Of a DNA stretch of 64,000 nt, positions 13,582 to 59,134 are shown piece after piece (the first letter of the stretch is position 1; the number at the start of each line of letters is the position of its first letter). This stretch comes from Escherichia phage BYEP02: sequence record OR757454.1. One strand, given 5' to 3'. Below the pieces are notes generated by a model. The model had not been told where the DNA came from, searched no databases, and saw nothing but the letters and a program-made list of their open reading frames with translations. The translations under genes and the position numbers were made by a program.

Positions 13582-14011
13582 TTTCGCTGAAGGTAAAAAT
13601 ATTGCGCATGGATGTAATTGTTTTCACACGATGAAAGCTGGAGTCGCAGGTCAATTAACTAAAGCTTTCCCTAAAATTTTGGAAGCTGATAAATTACAGA
13701 CAGAATGGGGCGATGTAACTAAACTCGGTTCTTACTCAGTCTATGAAAAATACTTTAGGACTCATAAAGCTTACTGCTTCAATCTTTATACTCAATTTCA
13801 ACCGGGGCCAAATTTTGAGTATTCCGCTTTAATGAATTGTATGTTAGAATTAAATGAGTTTGGTGAAAATAAACTGATTAAACCTACAATCTATATGCCT
13901 AGGATTGGTGCAGGCATAGGTAAAGGGAACTGGGATATTATTGAGGGGATTTTAGATACATATTCCTCTAAATTAGAAATTGTGATTGTTGATTGGGAAC
14001 CGTTATTATGA
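13544..14011 (+). CDS. macro-domain-like protein (ADP-ribose binding/processing fold)
   Basis: N-terminal KGDIVAL...AHGCNC...MKAGVAGQL follows the macro-domain pattern; C-terminal PRIGAGIGKGNW. Confidence 0.5.
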   Translation: MIVKYIKGDIVALFAEGKNIAHGCNCFHTMKAGVAGQLTKAFPKILEADKLQTEWGDVTKLGSYSVYEKYFRTHKAYCFNLYTQFQPGPNFEYSALMNCMLELNEFGENKLIKPTIYMPRIGAGIGKGNWDIIEGILDTYSSKLEIVIVDWEPLL

Positions 14012-14220
14012 ATATACATTATCCACATCCGTATGACCCAAAGAATAAGGCAGTAATTATTCGTCAATGGGAACGCATTTGCCGTACTAAATGTCCAATT
14101 AATAGTCCACATGATGTAGATAAAGACTACATTGGAACATTCGTTGAATATACCTTTATTGATAAGAAAGGTCGTAAACAACATGTAGAAGAATATTGCT
14201 TAAAGGTTACATGGTTATGA
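14008..14220 (+). CDS. hypothetical protein (70 aa)
   Basis: ATGA overlap with upstream stop. Confidence 0.45.
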   Translation: MNIHYPHPYDPKNKAVIIRQWERICRTKCPINSPHDVDKDYIGTFVEYTFIDKKGRKQHVEEYCLKVTWL

Positions 14221-14423
14221 GCCAAACTAGTATTCTTAAAAATGCCCACTGCGAAAAGTGTAAGTGGCCGGTTGTTTTTGCTTTATGCAACGATGAAATG
14301 ACTTGTGATTTCGATTATTGGTGCTATTGTTCTAATAAAGGATGCATCAATCATAAAGGTGAAGGATTTTATTCAGGATTTTATCCTTATCCTGATTTCG
14401 TTAAAGAAGGTAAACCAAAATGA
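14217..14423 (+). CDS. Cys-rich small protein (CxxC ... CxC ... C)
   Basis: CEKCKW...CNDEMTCDFDYWCYCSNKGC. Confidence 0.45.
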   Translation: MSQTSILKNAHCEKCKWPVVFALCNDEMTCDFDYWCYCSNKGCINHKGEGFYSGFYPYPDFVKEGKPK

Positions 14424-14596
14424 ATGATGATTTAAAATATCAATTATTACGTGAACTTGATGTTTTGATTAAACTTTCTGCGCAAAAAGGATTTATAATT
14501 GGATCAGGTCAAAAAGACCCCAACGGTCATTCAATCGTAGCAGTTATGAATCAGAAACGAGTCATTTTAAAACTTTTGGGGATTGACATACTGTGA
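14420..14596 (+). CDS. hypothetical protein (58 aa)
   Basis: ATGA overlap; not in supplied ORF track (below its length cutoff). Confidence 0.4.
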   Translation: MNDDLKYQLLRELDVLIKLSAQKGFIIGSGQKDPNGHSIVAVMNQKRVILKLLGIDIL

Positions 14597-14778
14597 GCCT
14601 AAGCAAAGAACAAAAAGATAAATTGTTTGAGCTTATCCATGAACTTCTAGATGAGCATACAGAAGCAAACACCTTTTATGATGAATACGGCCCGCTATCT
14701 CCTGAACAGCAGGAAGAATTTGCTGATCGGTTTGATAAGAAAGAAAATGAATTAATAGCTTATGTGAATACGCTTTAA
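14593..14778 (+). CDS. hypothetical acidic protein (61 aa), GTG start
   Basis: GTGA overlap with upstream stop. Confidence 0.45.
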   Translation: MSLSKEQKDKLFELIHELLDEHTEANTFYDEYGPLSPEQQEEFADRFDKKENELIAYVNTL

Positions 14779-14787
14779 GAAGGTGAT

Positions 14788-15369
14788 ATGGCGAGTTTAA
14801 TTTTTACTTATGCAGCAATGAATGCTGGAAAATCTGCTTCTCTTTTGACTGCTGCGCATAATTATAAAGAACGCGGAATGAGTGTATTAGTTCTTAAGCC
14901 TGCTATTGATACTCGCGATTCTGTCTGTGAAGTCGTTTCTCGCATTGGAATTAAGCAGGAAGCGAATATTATTACGGATGATATGGATATTTTTGAGTTC
15001 TATAAATGGGCTGAAGCACAAAAAGATATTCATTGCGTATTTGTAGATGAAGCTCAGTTTTTAAAAACTGAACAGGTGCATCAATTAAGCCGAATTGTTG
15101 ATACATATAATGTTCCTGTTATGGCTTATGGGCTAAGGACTGATTTCGCTGGAAAATTATTTGAAGGTTCTAAAGAACTTTTGGCGATTGCAGATAAACT
15201 TATTGAACTAAAAGCAGTTTGTCATTGTGGTAAAAAAGCTATTATGACAGCTCGATTAATGGAAGATGGAACACCAGTTAAAGAAGGTAATCAAATCTGT
15301 ATTGGTGATGAAATTTATGTTTCTTTGTGTAGAAAACATTGGAATGAATTAACTAAAAAGCTCGGTTAG
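14788..15369 (+). CDS. tk: thymidine kinase
   Basis: Translation MASLIFTYAAMNAGKSASLL... with P-loop; matches T4 Tk. Confidence 0.95.
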   Translation: MASLIFTYAAMNAGKSASLLTAAHNYKERGMSVLVLKPAIDTRDSVCEVVSRIGIKQEANIITDDMDIFEFYKWAEAQKDIHCVFVDEAQFLKTEQVHQLSRIVDTYNVPVMAYGLRTDFAGKLFEGSKELLAIADKLIELKAVCHCGKKAIMTARLMEDGTPVKEGNQICIGDEIYVSLCRKHWNELTKKLG

Positions 15370-15378
15370 TGCAAAAGT

Positions 15379-15386
15379 TATAAATA
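15379..15386 (+). promoter_or_regulatory. T4 late promoter TATAAATA
   Basis: Exact TATAAATA ~26 nt upstream of ATG 15412. Confidence 0.5.
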
Positions 15387-15411
15387 GGTTTATCTAACTA
15401 AAGGGGTATAT

Positions 15412-15624
15412 ATGCTACAATTAACTGAAAAGCAACTTCGCAATCTTACTGTTCTTCAATTAGATGAAATTCGTAGGGAAGTTGGAAATATCATTTCAGC
15501 TTTGCGTCGAGAAGTATCACTCAACCAATCTCCGGCAGACTATACTAGATTGCGAAATTTTGAAAAATACCTTGATAGAGTTAAGGCCGTGCATCGGCAT
15601 AAAGTAAATACAGGACAAAAATGA
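15412..15624 (+). CDS. hypothetical protein (70 aa)
   Basis: ORF with GGGG RBS. Confidence 0.5.
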
Positions 15625-15636
15625 TAGGAGGCCTTT

Positions 15637-15930
15637 ATGGCCTTAAAAGCAACGGCACTATTTGCCATGCTAGGATTGTCATTTGTTTTATCTCCATCGA
15701 TTGAAGCGAATGTCGATCCTCATTTTGATAAATTTATGGAATCTGGTATTAGGCACGTTTATATGCTTTTTGAAAATAAAAGCGTAGAATCGTCTGAACA
15801 ATTCTATAGTTTTATGAGAACGACCTATAAAAATGACCCGTGCTCTTCTGATTTTGAATGCATAGAACGAGGCGCGGAGATGGCACAATCATACGCTAGA
15901 ATTATGAACATTAAATTGGAGACTGAATGA
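15637..15930 (+). CDS. rI: RI lysis-inhibition regulator (antiholin)
   Basis: Translation MALKATALFAMLGLSFVLSPSIEANVDPHFDKF... matches T4 RI; signal-anchor N-terminus. Confidence 0.9.
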   Translation: MALKATALFAMLGLSFVLSPSIEANVDPHFDKFMESGIRHVYMLFENKSVESSEQFYSFMRTTYKNDPCSSDFECIERGAEMAQSYARIMNIKLETE

Positions 15931-16390
15931 AATTCAGCGACTTTTCACAAAGTGGAAAACCTTCAAAGGCAGATGAATACTTAGGTTTATTAATGGCTGC
16001 ACAAGCTTATTTTCATTCTGCTCACAAAGTGGAAAACCTTCAAAGGCAGATGAATACTTAGGTTTATTAATGGCTGCACAAGCTTATTTTCATTCTGCAC
16101 ATTTTGAAACTAAAAGTTATGCTAGACACAAAGCATACGATTTTATTTTCTCCGAGTTGCCAGATTTGATTGATAAATTTGGTGAGCAATATTTGGGGTA
16201 TTCTGGTAGAAAATACACACCTTCAATTCCAGATGCTAGTAAACTTCCTACCGACACAATTAAAATGATTGATCGCATACTAGACCAATCTAACAGCATT
16301 TATAAAGAAATGCCTCCAGCCATCCAAAGCACGATAGATGATATTACTGGAATGTTTTACCAGAGTAAGTATCTTCTTTCCCTCGAATAA
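15927..16390 (+). CDS. hypothetical protein, frameshifted by a 77-bp duplication
   Basis: ATGA overlap with rI stop; 129 codons after removing 77 nt. Confidence 0.5.
15946..16099. repeat. 77-bp tandem duplication (15946-16022 / 16023-16099), 0-1 mismatch
   Basis: Read directly. Confidence 0.9.
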
Positions 16391-16395
16391 CGTTA

Positions 16396-16417
16396 GTCTC
16401 CTTCGGGAGACTTTTTT
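16396..16417 (+). terminator. intrinsic terminator, UUCG tetraloop hairpin
   Basis: gtctccttcgggagac followed by tttttt. Confidence 0.7.
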
Positions 16418-16427
16418 CATTTTACCG

Positions 16428-16457
16428 GTTTACTTTCCATTTGAGCTGTGATACTAT
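16428..16457 (+). promoter_or_regulatory. T4 early-type promoter (GTTTAC, 18 nt, TACTAT)
   Basis: Consensus motifs. Confidence 0.55.
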
Positions 16458-16485
16458 ACAACCATCGGATAAAGAGGAGAACATC

Positions 16486-16674
16486 ATGAAAATTGAAGCA
16501 CTCAATCAAGAAGGAAATATCTACGTCATCATTAATGGTGATTTTTTCGTCGACATGGATGAAGTTACTAGTGAAGAACTTGTAGAACTTCTTAAGAAAC
16601 GTTATAATATGTGTGATGAAGTTGCAACTCACATGGCGTGTGCAATATTCTCTCTTTCATATGTGGTGGAATAA
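16486..16674 (+). CDS. hypothetical small protein
   Basis: ATG with GAGGAG RBS. Confidence 0.45.
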
Positions 16675-16877
16675 TGATTAGTATCGAACAAGCTGATAAA
16701 ATTAAGGAATTGGTAGCTTTAATTCGTAAAGCAGACGAGGAGCGCATTAACTTTGCTTGGTATTCATCGGGTATTTCGAATAAAGGCATTAAAGACTTTG
16801 AAACTAAAGTGGATAATGCTTTAGAAGCGTTAGATATGTTTCTTGATGAAATTATCGATCATAATACGAGAGTTTAA
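16674..16877 (+). CDS. small protein, member of a 4-gene local paralogue set
   Basis: N-terminus [23 protein letters not shown] resembles those of the ORFs at 16880, 17064 and 17402. Confidence 0.45.
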   Translation: MISIEQADKIKELVALIRKADEERINFAWYSSGISNKGIKDFETKVDNALEALDMFLDEIIDHNTRV

Positions 16878-16879
16878 GT

Positions 16880-17074
16880 ATGCTAACACGCGAACAGTTT
16901 GAAAAAATCATTAAATTAGCACGTGATATTGAAATAGATTCATATCAATTAGCAGTTGAGCATTGTGAAGGATATTCATACGACGGTATAGAAGCAGCTA
17001 AAAAGGATTTGGATAAATCTAAAGCTAAGTTAGTTCAATATCTTGAAATGATTAGGTGGAATAATGAAAACTGA
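16880..17074 (+). CDS. small protein, paralogue set member
   Basis: MLTREQFEKIIKLARDIEIDSYQLA. Confidence 0.45.
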   Translation: MLTREQFEKIIKLARDIEIDSYQLAVEHCEGYSYDGIEAAKKDLDKSKAKLVQYLEMIRWNNEN

Positions 17075-17237
17075 AAAGCAGATGTTTTTAATGAAACTAA
17101 TTGAAGAATATGCTAATGCAGTTTCTGACTATGAGTATTCTGCTCGGGAAAGAGGTACAGCTTTCGCAAAAGAAGAAATGAAAATCATGGTTGATGCTCA
17201 CACAAAGCTTCAGAATTTTATTGAAAACGTCATTTAA
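17064..17237 (+). CDS. small protein, paralogue set member
   Basis: MKTEKQMFLMKLIEEYANAVSDYEYS; not in supplied ORF track. Confidence 0.4.
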   Translation: MKTEKQMFLMKLIEEYANAVSDYEYSARERGTAFAKEEMKIMVDAHTKLQNFIENVI

Positions 17238-17239
17238 TG

Positions 17240-17269
17240 GTTTACAAGTTGGCAAGGTTATGGTATAGT
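17240..17269 (+). promoter_or_regulatory. T4 early-type promoter (GTTTAC, 18 nt, TATAGT)
   Basis: Consensus motifs. Confidence 0.5.
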
Positions 17270-17401
17270 AATCTTGTCAACTGCCAAGGAGAAGAGAATG
17301 AAAGTTTTGTTTGTTGTGTATGTGATGATTCAATATAATTACCCAATGTTTACTTATAATCTGGTGAACAACATTATTGATATTATTCAAAGGAGTATGT
17401 A

Positions 17402-17587
17402 ATGACAAGTGAGCAGGCTTTTAAATTAAGAGAATTAATTGAGACGTATAGTAAAGCTGTTCATACATCAACAATTATTGATGAATCAGCTTTCTCCGGA
17501 CATGCTAACAAGATTAAATACAAAACTCTTATGGAAGAAGCTAAAGTAAATCTTGATTCTTATATTGAAACTTTAATTGGTGAATAA
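17402..17587 (+). CDS. small protein, paralogue set member
   Basis: MTSEQAFKLRELIETYSKAVHTS. Confidence 0.45.
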   Translation: MTSEQAFKLRELIETYSKAVHTSTIIDESAFSGHANKIKYKTLMEEAKVNLDSYIETLIGE

Positions 17588-17588
17588 T

Positions 17589-17855
17589 ATGAGTTTTCCT
17601 AAATTAGAAGTAGGTGACTTAGTTTTAACAAAATTATGGAATGGTGTTCAATCAGTAGAAATCTGCCAATATCGTGGAGCAACAGGTAATTTGATGTACA
17701 CGATTTATAATCCAGAAATTTTGTTAGAGTGTCATTTGGAACGCTTTATAAAAGACACCGATAGTATGCCTTATAGTGTATCAATTGTACGTAAATCTGA
17801 TACAAAGGAATACTCTAAAATTTTAGAACAAATCAGCGCAAATAAAAAGGATTAA
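17589..17855 (+). CDS. hypothetical protein (88 aa)
   Basis: ATG after upstream stop. Confidence 0.45.
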   Translation: MSFPKLEVGDLVLTKLWNGVQSVEICQYRGATGNLMYTIYNPEILLECHLERFIKDTDSMPYSVSIVRKSDTKEYSKILEQISANKKD

Positions 17856-17856
17856 T

Positions 17857-18467
17857 ATGAAACGATTAGTATTAGAAGTTAGTTCATTTTTTGGTGAATT
17901 GGCTATAGAAAAAGTAAATAATATGTATCGTTTGACGCAAGAAGACGATATGCTATATTTTACGCCTAGCGAAATTATTCATTTAACCCAAATTGAAAAA
18001 CCTTACACTGATAAAATTGTAAGCATTAATGATGAGCATAAAATTCATTTCTATTCTTTATGCCCAGGATTTAACATTGAAAGCGAGTCAATATGCTTAT
18101 CAGTTATCCATTGGGATAGTTTTATAGCTAAGATTAAATATTTTTATTATTCTAATGAAAGAAAACATAGTTTAAAATGGCTCAAAAATTGCAATGCTAT
18201 TATTACTAACGCTTGCAATCAGAATGATGAAACTGTTTTAAACATAGTTTAAAATGGCTCAAAAATTGCAATGCTATTATTACTAACGCTTGCAATCAGA
18301 ATGATGAAACTGTTTTAAATGTATCAAAATGTTATGAAGATGGAGATGTCTTAACTATTCGTCAAATTGATGATTTTCGAGCGCATATTGTCACATTTAC
18401 CAAAGACGAAGCTATTGCGTTAAAGACTTATCTTGATTCTGTCATTCCAACTATGATTTCAAAGTGA
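17857..18467 (+). CDS. hypothetical protein, frameshifted by a 77-bp duplication
   Basis: 178 codons after removing 77 nt. Confidence 0.5.
18164..18317. repeat. 77-bp tandem duplication (18164-18240 / 18241-18317), identical
   Basis: Read directly. Confidence 0.9.
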
Positions 18468-18473
18468 GGAAAT

Positions 18474-18995
18474 ATGTTTATTTCAAGTGGAAGCGGTTTA
18501 ATTCGTGTTGAATTTAAAAATGACATCTTTCTTAGTCAAGGAGATGATATTATTAAAATGAGTTATGACGAAATCAAGAAAATTTGTCATGCTCTTGAAA
18601 GTCATGGAAAGGAAAATGCTACTATCGATATAGGTGATTTATGGGTGACACTTTATGAAGTATCCGAAGGATTTAACATTGAAGATGAAAACAACATTTT
18701 AGCTATTGATAAAAGAAGTGATTTGTTTGATGTATTAAAAGTTTATGAACAGTCAAATGGTGGAAGAAAAGCTGTATTGATTTATCAAAAACCACATTCG
18801 TGTGGAACTGCTTCAATCATTTCAAATATTGAAGATGAAACTGATACTTATATGTGTGTTTTAAAAGCCGGTGGTGACCGTCATCCGGATTTTATTTCTA
18901 TTCGTCAAAACAATGGAGAAATTTCATTATCAAAATCAGAAGCTGAAGCTATGATTAAGTATTTAACAACCGTTACGCCTTCAATGAAAGGATGA
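18474..18995 (+). CDS. hypothetical protein (173 aa)
   Basis: ATG with GAGGAAA RBS. Confidence 0.5.
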   Translation: MFISSGSGLIRVEFKNDIFLSQGDDIIKMSYDEIKKICHALESHGKENATIDIGDLWVTLYEVSEGFNIEDENNILAIDKRSDLFDVLKVYEQSNGGRKAVLIYQKPHSCGTASIISNIEDETDTYMCVLKAGGDRHPDFISIRQNNGEISLSKSEAEAMIKYLTTVTPSMKG

Positions 18996-28668: not shown

Positions 28669-28932
28669 ATGTTTAAAGTATATGGTTATGATAGCAACAT
28701 CCACAAATGTGTGTATTGCGATAATGCAAAACGTCTTTTGACAGTGAAGAAACAACCGTTTGAATTTATCAACATTATGCCGGAAAAAGGTGTTTTTGAT
28801 GATGAGAAAATCGCTGAGCTTCTGACTAAACTAGGTCGTGATACTCAAATCGGCTTGACAATGCCCCAGGTATTTGCTCCTGATGGAAGTTATATTGGTG
28901 GATTTGACAAATTGCGGGAATACTTTAAATGA
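28669..28932 (+). CDS. nrdC: thioredoxin/glutaredoxin-like NrdC
   Basis: Translation MFKVYGYDSNIHKCVYCDNAKRLL... with CVYC active site matches T4 NrdC. Confidence 0.9.
   Translation: MFKVYGYDSNIHKCVYCDNAKRLLTVKKQPFEFINIMPEKGVFDDEKIAELLTKLGRDTQIGLTMPQVFAPDGSYIGGFDKLREYFK

Positions 28933-57711: not shown

Positions 57712-59134
<1,423 letters not shown>

What the first reader, a model, noticed from the sequence alone, without database searches (positions are those of the whole stretch)
16674..17587. Cluster of four small paralogous ORFs
ORFs at 16674, 16880, 17064 and 17402 (57-67 aa) share an N-terminal pattern M.(S/T).EQ..K(I/L).EL(I/V). They appear to be local duplications in the hyperplastic tk-to-nrdC interval. 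Small tandem paralogue families in such regions often encode host-takeover or anti-defence factors.
Basis: seen in the sequence. Interest (0 to 1): 0.4.

Follow-up and report, generated by a model that had tools for sequence, protein, structure and literature searches.

The report
Early helical-hairpin gene family in T-even phage
The four small genes are true but ancient paralogues, with a fifth copy beside the thymidine kinase gene, of a catalogued T4-like phage family (Pfam DUF7438) of about 60-residue acidic two-helix proteins made early in infection, whose function is still unknown.

Summary
Observation confirmed. The window is a Tequatrovirus genome, 100% identical to Escherichia phage slur03/08/14 over 16400-17900. 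The four ORFs are the T4-type genes mobD.4, mobD.3 and mobD.2a, plus a 61-aa gene that T4 lacks.

- **Family:** all four, and a fifth copy at 14593-14778 (tk.2), match Pfam DUF7438 at 58-70 bits against a cut-off of 25. Each is still retrieved when its own orthologues are left out of the profile (E 4e-5 to 1e-9).
- **Age:** they share only 14-30% identity and no DNA similarity. The duplications predate the Tequatrovirus/Mosigvirus/Dhakavirus split, so they are not recent.
- **Real genes:** pN/pS is 0.04-0.24. Two T4-documented early promoters are conserved here. T4 proteomics detects MobD.3, MobD.4, Tk.1 and Tk.2.
- **Dispensable and variable:** T4 tolerates deletion of nrdC.11-mobD.3. Copy number near tk runs from 0 to 6 across T4-like genera. 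In T4 the family occurs only around tk.
- **Structure:** AlphaFold gives a two-helix hairpin (pLDDT 84 and 95). Fold matches such as Rop are generic and not significant.

The function is untested. My best inference is small oligomerising binders of host or rival proteins, that is host-takeover or counter-defence accessories. The family is already catalogued, so interest is modest.

The parts
14593..14778 (+). tk.2-type DUF7438 gene (61 aa, GTG start overlapping the upstream stop).
   Evidence: Pfam DUF7438 69.6 bits, E 2.9e-19. Leave-out HMM E 1e-8. A DUF7438 ORF sits at the same position in PhAPEC2, VR5, JD18 and TG1. tblastn finds it in 741 phage records.
16395..16422 (+). Intrinsic-terminator-like hairpin (AGTCTCC-TTCG-GGAGACT plus a T run) after rI.-1. 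It closes the upstream transcription unit.
   Evidence: Conserved in T4.
16429..16457 (+). T4-type early promoter of mobD.5 (TTTACT, 17-nt spacer, TGaTACTAT). It drives mobD.5-mobD.4-mobD.3-mobD.2a.
   Evidence: Read from the sequence. It scores below the scan tool's 9-of-12 threshold. Conserved in T4 with a 1-nt indel. The T4 mobD.5 promoter was seen by primer extension 3 min after infection (PMC1702504).
16486..16674 (+). mobD.5 (62 aa, acidic). First gene of the unit and not a family member.
   Evidence: phrog_3024, with no DUF7438 hit.
16674..16877 (+). mobD.4-type DUF7438 gene (67 aa). Its start overlaps the mobD.5 stop (TAATG). The inter-helix loop is the variable part, with 60- and 67-aa alleles.
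   Evidence: Pfam 59.8 bits. phrog_653. pN/pS 0.24. Found in 504 phage records, most at 80-90% identity. T4 protein detected early.
16880..17074 (+). mobD.3-type DUF7438 gene (64 aa).
   Evidence: Pfam 64.1 bits. AlphaFold2 hairpin H4-30/H34-63, pLDDT 95.4. pN/pS 0.04. Found in 585 records. T4 protein detected early.
17064..17237 (+). mobD.2a-type DUF7438 gene (57 aa). It overlaps the end of mobD.3 by 11 nt. It is intact here and frameshifted in T4.
   Evidence: Pfam 59.8 bits. phrog_2758. pN/pS 0.09. The T4 copy is split into two frames.
17241..17269 (+). Early promoter (TTTACA, 17 nt, TGgTATAGT), equivalent to T4 Pe57954. The predicted start is near 17276.
   Evidence: Best promoter-like site in the region. 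63/65 identical to T4 57994-57930. Pe57954/Pe57.9 are listed as T4 early promoters (PMC6024815).
17298..17402 (+). mobD.2 (34 aa, hydrophobic). Not a family member. It fills the apparent gap and is start/stop-coupled (TAATG) to the next gene.
   Evidence: Same 105-nt length and position as T4/T2 mobD.2. No Pfam hit.
17402..17587 (+). DUF7438 gene (61 aa, 'ACG-C40_0100' type, named 'helicase loader' in RefSeq). Absent from T4 and present in about 190 Tequatrovirus records.
   Evidence: Pfam 57.8 bits. phrog_4859. AlphaFold2 hairpin H3-29/H34-60, pLDDT 83.9. Found in 192 records, against 501 records with near-identical Tk.
17589..17855 (+). Downstream phage Tudor-domain gene (88 aa) in the same early unit. 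Not a family member.
   Evidence: Pfam Phage_tudor, E 2.3e-40.

Best explanation
What is shown. The four ORFs plus tk.2 are ancient paralogues of one small protein family, Pfam DUF7438. The family is essentially confined to T4-like (Tevenvirinae) phages. Each protein is an acidic (pI 4.3-5.3), roughly 60-residue antiparallel two-helix hairpin. The conserved parts are an N-terminal M-(I/L)-T-x-E-Q helix cap and heptad-spaced hydrophobic positions in both helices. The surface positions and the inter-helix loop are variable. The genes sit in two groups around tk-rI. They are served by two T4-type early promoters and are translationally coupled. They are under purifying selection, and their T4 orthologues are detected as proteins early in infection. 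They are dispensable for growth on laboratory E. coli, and whole copies are gained, lost or pseudogenised between close relatives.

What is inferred. A 60-residue hairpin is too small to be an enzyme and probably too small to be stable alone. These proteins therefore most likely pair, with themselves or with each other, into four-helix bundles. They would then act stoichiometrically as binders or inhibitors of host proteins, or of a competitor's proteins, during the first minutes of infection. That makes them host-takeover or counter-defence accessory factors, with each paralogue keeping its own binding surface. No target is known.

My confidence is about 0.95 for the identity and anatomy and about 0.35-0.4 for the mechanism. 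The figure given is a blend of the two.
For: - **Family membership:**. Independent homology test.
- **Narrow distribution:** only 36 clusters at 50% identity among 1.84 billion representatives. All close hits are T4-like phages.
- **Fold:**. Acidity and the heptad pattern.
- **Purifying selection:** pN/pS 0.04-0.24, against 0.08 for rI.
- **Early promoters:**, with T4 data in PMC1702504 and PMC6024815.
- **Protein detection:** MobD.3 and MobD.4 show early RNA and early protein. Tk.1 and Tk.2 show early RNA and middle protein (PMC9697503 supplement).
- **Dispensability:** the T4 nrdC.11-mobD.3 fragment can be deleted (PMC9825161).
- **Copy-number variation:**
- **Localisation:** in T4 the family is found only around tk, genome-wide.
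- **Neighbourhood:** the window also carries known counter-defence or takeover genes such as Acb2/vs.4 and Dmd.
Against: - No experiment, interaction or homology links any member to a host target or a defence system.
- No paper in the library names the family. It is absent from the accessory-gene screen supplement I could search.
- Oligomerisation was not tested, because only monomer prediction was possible.
- Strong purifying selection and cross-genus conservation of tk.2 and mobD.3 are less typical of fast-evolving anti-defence genes. They would also fit a housekeeping-type phage role.
- Fold searches give only generic, non-significant hairpin matches.
Confidence: 0.55

Rival explanations
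1. Phage-internal adaptors. The hairpins bind phage proteins encoded nearby, such as thymidine kinase and the dNTP-synthesis complex or the rI lysis-inhibition module, and tune them rather than attacking the host.
For: A DUF7438 gene immediately upstream of tk is conserved in five genera: Tequatrovirus, Mosigvirus, Dhakavirus, Jiaodavirus and Tegunavirus. Purifying selection is strong. In T4 the family is found only around tk-rI.
Against: tk-bearing Slopekvirus, Krischvirus and Aeromonas phages have no copy near tk. The mobD group is separated from tk by five genes and is deletable. Copies come and go within one genus.
Confidence: 0.2
2. Rop-like RNA binders. The hairpins dimerise into four-helix bundles that bind RNA structures and modulate early phage or host RNAs.
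For: The best PDB fold matches of the 17402-ORF model are ColE1 Rop and its mutants (TM 0.84-0.90, rmsd 1.0-1.2 A). Size and acidity are similar to Rop (my own knowledge).
Against: Foldseek E-values are 0.5-1.9, so not significant, and any 57-residue hairpin would match. The better mobD.3 model does not list Rop in its top 50. No Pfam Rop hit appears at E <= 1. No Rfam element lies nearby.
Confidence: 0.05
3. Signal sponges. The hairpins oligomerise, like Acb2/Tad1, to sequester immune signalling nucleotides, with each paralogue covering a different signal.
For: They are small helical early proteins. The Acb2 (vs.4) gene lies about 3 kb upstream of tk.2 and 5 kb upstream of the mobD group, on the same strand. 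A paralogous expansion would suit multiple ligands.
Against: No profile similarity to the window's vs.4 and vs.3 proteins. No Acb2_Tad1_hairpin Pfam hit for any member. No Acb2 or Tad structures appear among the fold matches.
Confidence: 0.07
4. Not a real family. The similarity would reflect chance among short helical ORFs, non-coding ORFs, or the duplication artefacts seen in this assembly.
For: Pairwise E-values are weak. The window does contain many artefactual 77-nt tandem duplications.
Against: Leave-out profiles recover each member at E 4e-5 to 1e-9, with the next ORF at E >= 0.05. Matches to the curated Pfam model are well above threshold. pN/pS is 0.04-0.24. The T4 proteins are detected. 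The same genes occur in 190-740 independent phage records. No duplication junction falls within 16099-18162.
Confidence: 0.01

Closest known systems
Pfam DUF7438 (PF24219), covering PHROGs 653, 2758 and 4859 and the T4 genes tk.1, tk.2, mobD.2a, mobD.3 and mobD.4
   Same: All five window proteins match the whole 57-position model far above threshold. They share the same length, the same phage group and the same genomic position as the T4 genes.
   Different: Nothing substantive. The 17402-type copy has no T4 counterpart, and the mobD.4 allele here is the rarer 67-aa loop form. The family has no assigned function.
ColE1 Rop/Rom (helical hairpin that dimerises into a four-helix bundle and binds RNA kissing complexes)
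   Same: Predicted monomer geometry: two antiparallel helices of about 27 residues, TM up to 0.90. Small size and acidic charge.
   Different: No detectable sequence or profile similarity. The fold match is not statistically significant. Dimerisation and RNA binding are untested.
Small helical phage-encoded inhibitors, such as the Acb2/Tad1 hairpin sponges, the T7 Gp5.9 DNA mimic and the Pseudomonas phage Aqs1 hairpin dimer (the last two recalled from my own knowledge)
   Same: Early expression, about 50-90 residues, helical, acidic, dispensable, and located in accessory regions.
   Different: No homology: Pfam, hhalign and fold searches are all negative. No ligand or target is known. The resemblance is one of lifestyle only.

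Membership tests
Pfam DUF7438 (PF24219) | Whole-protein score above the curated gathering threshold (25 bits), covering the full 57-position model | tested here: met
   59.8, 64.1, 59.8 and 57.8 bits for the four ORFs and 69.6 for tk.2. Model positions 1-57 are matched, or 1-56 for mobD.2a.
Pfam DUF7438 (PF24219) | Homology that does not depend on the protein's own orthologues being in the model | tested here: met
   Leave-one-orthogroup-out HMMs give E 2.9e-9, 1.3e-9, 4.2e-5, 5.6e-8 and 1e-8. The next window ORF is at E >= 0.05.
Pfam DUF7438 (PF24219) | Single-domain protein of about 55-67 aa that folds as a two-helix hairpin | tested here: met
   AlphaFold2 gives H3-29/H34-60 (pLDDT 83.9) and H4-30/H34-63 (pLDDT 95.4).
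Pfam DUF7438 (PF24219) | Occurrence in T4-like phages around tk/rI | tested here: met
Rop/Rom RNA-binding four-helix-bundle proteins | Sequence or profile similarity to Rop | tested here: not met
   No Pfam Rop hit at E <= 1. hhalign probability 0.3%.
Rop/Rom RNA-binding four-helix-bundle proteins | Significant structural match to Rop | tested here: inconclusive
   TM 0.84-0.90 but Foldseek E 0.5-1.9. Rop is absent from the top 50 for the second model.
Rop/Rom RNA-binding four-helix-bundle proteins | Homodimeric four-helix bundle and RNA binding | not testable with these tools
   Only monomer prediction is available, and there is no binding assay.
Acb2/Tad1 hairpin sponges (PF24729) | Match to the Acb2_Tad1_hairpin profile or to the phage's own Acb2 | tested here: not met
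   No Pfam hit for any member. hhalign against the window's vs.4 and vs.3 proteins gives probability below 1%.
'Molybdopterin-guanine dinucleotide biosynthesis protein MobD' (RefSeq product name for mobD.4/mobD.3 orthologues) | Any similarity to molybdenum-cofactor biosynthesis families | tested here: not met
   No Pfam or NCBIfam match of that kind. The name evidently derives from the T4 locus name mobD.x, meaning next to the mobile endonuclease gene mobD.
'Helicase loader' (phrog_4859 / RefSeq name for the 17402-type ORF) | Similarity to the T4 gp59-type helicase loader | tested here: not met
   Apart from one weak sub-threshold match, the only Pfam hit is DUF7438. T4 gp59 is a separate 217-aa protein encoded elsewhere in the genome.

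The most novel reading that the evidence does not exclude
The DUF7438 hairpins could be a combinatorial set of counter-defence or takeover inhibitors. Co-expressed paralogues would pair as homo- and heterodimeric four-helix bundles whose variable loops and surfaces each neutralise a different host immune or housekeeping protein. Copy-number differences between T-even phages would then help set host range.
Probability: 0.12. Interest if true: 0.6.

Novelty: already known. Interest (0 to 1): 0.28.

Why it matters
T4 is the best-studied lytic phage, yet about half of its early genes have no known role. This work ties six T4/T6 'hypothetical' genes (tk.1, tk.2, mobD.2a, mobD.3, mobD.4 and the T6/slur03 61-aa gene) into one early-expressed, dispensable, copy-number-variable hairpin family. 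That defines a compact target for knock-out and pull-down experiments on host takeover or counter-defence. It also flags misleading database names ('MobD molybdopterin...', 'helicase loader', 'kilA anti-repressor'). It does not reveal a new kind of system.

Tried and rejected
- **Sequence search of solved structures** with two family profiles: nothing significant. The best hit was E 0.039, an anti-CRISPR chain with no aligned stretch.
- **Fold searches** of both models against PDB and BFVD: only generic hairpins, all at E >= 0.01.
- **hhalign** against Acb2/vs.3 and Rop: negative.
- **NCBIfam:** no model.
- **Rfam** on 14000-18600: nothing.
- **DNA repeat search:** no nucleotide similarity between copies.
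- **The search for related loci** with the family alignment failed because no stretch was conserved enough.
- **Contexts of two distant relatives** (P0132, P0140) were short, uninformative contigs.
- **Literature:** no paper mentions DUF7438. My mixed search on mobD.2/3/4 and tk.2 was swamped by unrelated 'tk.2' matches. The accessory-gene screen papers do not mention these genes or sequences. The CRISPRi-ART supplement held has no entry.
- **Extra members:** iterated local HMM searches found none in the window or in T4. T4 pseT.1 was a weak hit (E 0.023), but Pfam does not support it.
- **T7 Gp5.9-like ORF:** I tried to identify which window ORF gives the weak Pfam Phage_T7_Gp5_9 hit and failed.

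Full report
**Identity of the window**

Megablast of 16400-17900 finds 501 phage records. The region is 100% identical to Escherichia phages slur03, slur08 and slur14 (Tequatrovirus) and about 96.5% identical to T6. In those records and in T4 the ORFs are annotated as follows:
- mobD.4 = 16674-16877
- mobD.3 = 16880-17074
- mobD.2a = 17064-17237
- 'ACG-C40_0100' = 17402-17587, a gene that T4 lacks

The landmarks around them are tk at 14788-15369, rI at 15637-15930 and nrdC near 28669.

**Checking the observation**

The four ORFs exist with the stated coordinates and sizes. The N-terminal pattern is looser than written. The strict regular expression fits only the 16674 ORF. A relaxed version fits three ORFs, against 0.000 hits expected in shuffled ORF sets.

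A naive five-way alignment gives 16-28% identity. Pairwise phmmer E-values are only 3e-4 to 0.3. On pairwise evidence alone the claim would be shaky. Profile evidence settles it:
- Every ORF matches Pfam DUF7438 (PF24219) over the whole model at 58-64 bits, against a cut-off of 25.
- The Pfam seed may contain their orthologues, so I ran a leave-one-orthogroup-out test.
- Profiles built without any sequence close to the tested paralogue still rank it first among the non-training ORFs of the window (720 ORFs).
- The E-values are 2.9e-9, 1.3e-9, 4.2e-5 and 5.6e-8, and the next ORF is at E >= 0.05.

The similarity is real homology.

**A fifth member and the full inventory**

The ORF just upstream of tk (14593-14778, GTG start, annotated Tk.2) is the best DUF7438 match of all, at 69.6 bits. 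Its leave-out E-value is 1e-8.
- Scanning all six frames of the window with seed, broadened and iterated HMMs finds exactly these five.
- Scanning 64 small + strand ORFs with Pfam itself finds DUF7438 four times. tk.2 was not in that ATG-only set. No other family is hit more than once.
- In T4, scanned genome-wide except for 2 kb, the only members are tk.2, tk.1, mobD.4, mobD.3 and a frameshifted mobD.2a.
- A weak pseT.1 hit is not supported by Pfam.

**Age of the duplications**

There is no nucleotide-level repeat between the copies. On a profile alignment the copies share only 14-30% identity. Orthologues of individual copies are far more similar across genera:
- tk.2: 55-71% between Tequatrovirus, Mosigvirus and Dhakavirus
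- mobD.3: 69%
- mobD.2a against RB69p108: 45%

The duplications therefore predate these genera. They are not recent local events. They are also unrelated to the 77-nt assembly-type duplications that pepper the window.

**Are they genes?**

Yes, on four lines of evidence.
- **Translation signals:** most of the genes have good Shine-Dalgarno sequences, and several have start/stop overlaps typical of translational coupling.
- **Selection:** across seven Tequatrovirus genomes pN/pS is 0.24 (mobD.4), 0.04 (mobD.3) and 0.09 (mobD.2a), against 0.08 for rI. Variation in mobD.4 is concentrated in the loop, which has 60- and 67-aa alleles.
- **Transcription:**
  - A terminator-like hairpin at 16395-16412 is followed by a T4-type early promoter upstream of mobD.5.
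  - The best promoter-like site of the region, at 17241-17269, precedes mobD.2 and the 17402 ORF.
  - Both promoters are conserved in T4, and the second maps exactly to T4 Pe57954.
  - The T4 literature documents the mobD.5 promoter at 3 min after infection (PMC1702504) and lists Pe57954/Pe57.9 as early promoters (PMC6024815).
- **Protein:** T4 time-resolved omics classify mobD.3 and mobD.4 as early RNA with early protein, and tk.1 and tk.2 as early RNA with middle protein. The frameshifted mobD.2a has RNA but no protein (PMC9697503 supplement).

**Dispensability and variation**

A T4 genome-reduction study recovered viable mutants lacking nrdC.11 through mobD.3 (PMC9825161). tblastn counts of phage records carrying each gene are:

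| Gene | Records |
|---|---|
| tk.2 | 741 |
| mobD.3 | 585 |
| mobD.4 | 504 |
| mobD.2a | 491 |
| 17402-type | 192 |
| Tk at >= 95% identity (for comparison) | 501 |

Copy number within 9-12 kb of tk:

| Phage (genus) | Copies |
|---|---|
| T6 (Tequatrovirus) | 6 |
| this phage (Tequatrovirus) | 5 |
| T4 (Tequatrovirus) | 4, plus 1 pseudogene |
| VR5 (Dhakavirus) | 3 |
| PhAPEC2 (Mosigvirus) | 2 |
| JD18 (Jiaodavirus) | 1 |
| TG1 (Tegunavirus) | 1 |
| a Slopekvirus, a Krischvirus, Aeromonas phage Aes508 | 0 |

An exhaustive profile search of 1.84 billion cluster representatives finds only 36 clusters at E <= 1e-3. The family is small and phage-lineage-restricted.

**Structure and what it suggests**

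AlphaFold2 gives an antiparallel two-helix hairpin for the 17402 ORF (pLDDT 83.9) and for mobD.3 (pLDDT 95.4). All five proteins are acidic, with pI 4.3-5.3. Across 24 diverse members the conserved positions are the N-terminal M-I/L-T-x-E-Q cap and heptad-spaced hydrophobic residues in both helices. The surfaces and the loop vary.

Fold searches return only generic hairpins with non-significant E-values: Rop, Mediator subunits, CnrX, CdsO, designed homo-oligomers and SSV1 D-63. BFVD returns many uncharacterised 55-60-aa proteins, most of them from T4-like phages. No solved structure is related by sequence. Profile comparisons with Rop and with the window's Acb2 are negative.

**Mechanism (inference)**

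A 60-residue acidic hairpin cannot be an enzyme. Most of the analogous hairpins returned by the fold searches act as oligomeric bundles (my own knowledge). The family is also made early, dispensable in the laboratory, patchy between relatives, and located in a window that carries known takeover and counter-defence genes (Acb2 and Dmd).

The most likely role is therefore a set of small stoichiometric protein binders acting on host or competitor targets in the first minutes of infection. I put this at roughly 0.35-0.4.

The main rival, at about 0.2, is an internal phage role. The argument for it is the conserved tk.2-tk adjacency in five genera together with strong purifying selection. Rop-like RNA binding and Acb2-like sponging remain possible but have no positive support.

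**Comparison with what is known, and novelty**

The genes are identical to deposited, annotated genes, and the family is already curated as DUF7438 and split among PHROGs 653, 2758 and 4859. No paper in the library mentions it. The finding is therefore 'already known' as an object, with the function still open. Several database product names are propagation errors with no supporting similarity: 'molybdopterin-guanine dinucleotide biosynthesis protein MobD', 'helicase loader' and 'kilA anti-repressor'.

**Verdict**

Interest is modest.

Noticed in passing
window, throughout; e.g. 13428/13505, 15945/16022, 18163/18240, 29242/29319, 42545/42622, 56275/56352: The repeat search found 35 families of short-range direct repeats. 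Of the 20 largest families listed, 18 include a tandem duplication of exactly 77 nt (100% or 97-99% identical) and the other two are 81-nt tandem pairs. At the four junctions compared with slur03 (13505, 16022, 18240, about 19740) the duplication is absent from the published genome; a fifth (about 22221) is absent from T6 and T4. This looks like assembly-graph nodes (k = 77) joined without trimming their overlaps. The duplications break ORFs such as rI.-1 (16022), the mobD.1-like gene (18240) and the nrdC.11-like gene (about 19740).
   Followed up: partly
L003 5997-6178 (T4 record about 57996-58177): T4's own mobD.2a is a frameshifted pseudogene. The N-terminal 38 aa and the C-terminal helix lie in different frames. 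The gene is intact (57 aa) in this phage, T6, T2, ime09 and others. T4 proteomics show RNA but no protein for it.
   Followed up: yes
window 16674-16877 and orthologues: mobD.4 has two loop alleles: 67 aa ('FAWYSSGISNKGIKDF') and 60 aa ('FALSGIEE'). It also has the highest pN/pS of the cluster (0.24), and most database orthologues are only 80-90% identical to this allele. The loop is the fast-evolving part.
   Followed up: partly
window 17298-17402: The apparent 164-nt gap between mobD.2a and the 17402 ORF holds an early promoter and the 34-aa hydrophobic ORF mobD.2 (MKVLFVVYVMIQYNYPMFTYNLVNNIIDIIQRSM). mobD.2 is start/stop-coupled to the next gene. One metagenomic read-through protein (P0057) carries a precomputed Pfam PF26864 label, presumably on this segment.
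   Followed up: partly
RefSeq/GenBank annotations of orthologues: Product names for these 60-aa proteins are unsupported name or similarity propagations. They include 'molybdopterin-guanine dinucleotide biosynthesis protein MobD', 'helicase loader', 'kilA anti-repressor', 'XRE family transcriptional regulator' and 'integrase and recombinase'.
   Followed up: yes
window, one of 64 small + strand ORFs (not located): One small ORF gives a weak Pfam hit to Phage_T7_Gp5_9, the T7 RecBCD inhibitor family (E 5.7e-4). It is not one of nine ORFs tested in the tk-nrdC interval, and it was not found with a remembered T7 gp5.9 sequence.
   Followed up: partly
window 17589-17855: An 88-aa phage Tudor-domain protein (Pfam Phage_tudor, E 2e-40) lies directly downstream of the last DUF7438 gene in the same early unit. 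Like that gene, it appears to be absent from T4 (T4 has nothing between mobD.2 and mobD.1).
   Followed up: no
L006 11276-12013 (VR5); L011 7995-8954 (Aes508); T4 mobD: Homing-endonuclease genes are inserted at different points next to tk or the DUF7438 genes in different phages. In VR5 one lies between tk.2 and tk. This fits the view that the interval is a hotspot for mobile-element insertion.
   Followed up: no
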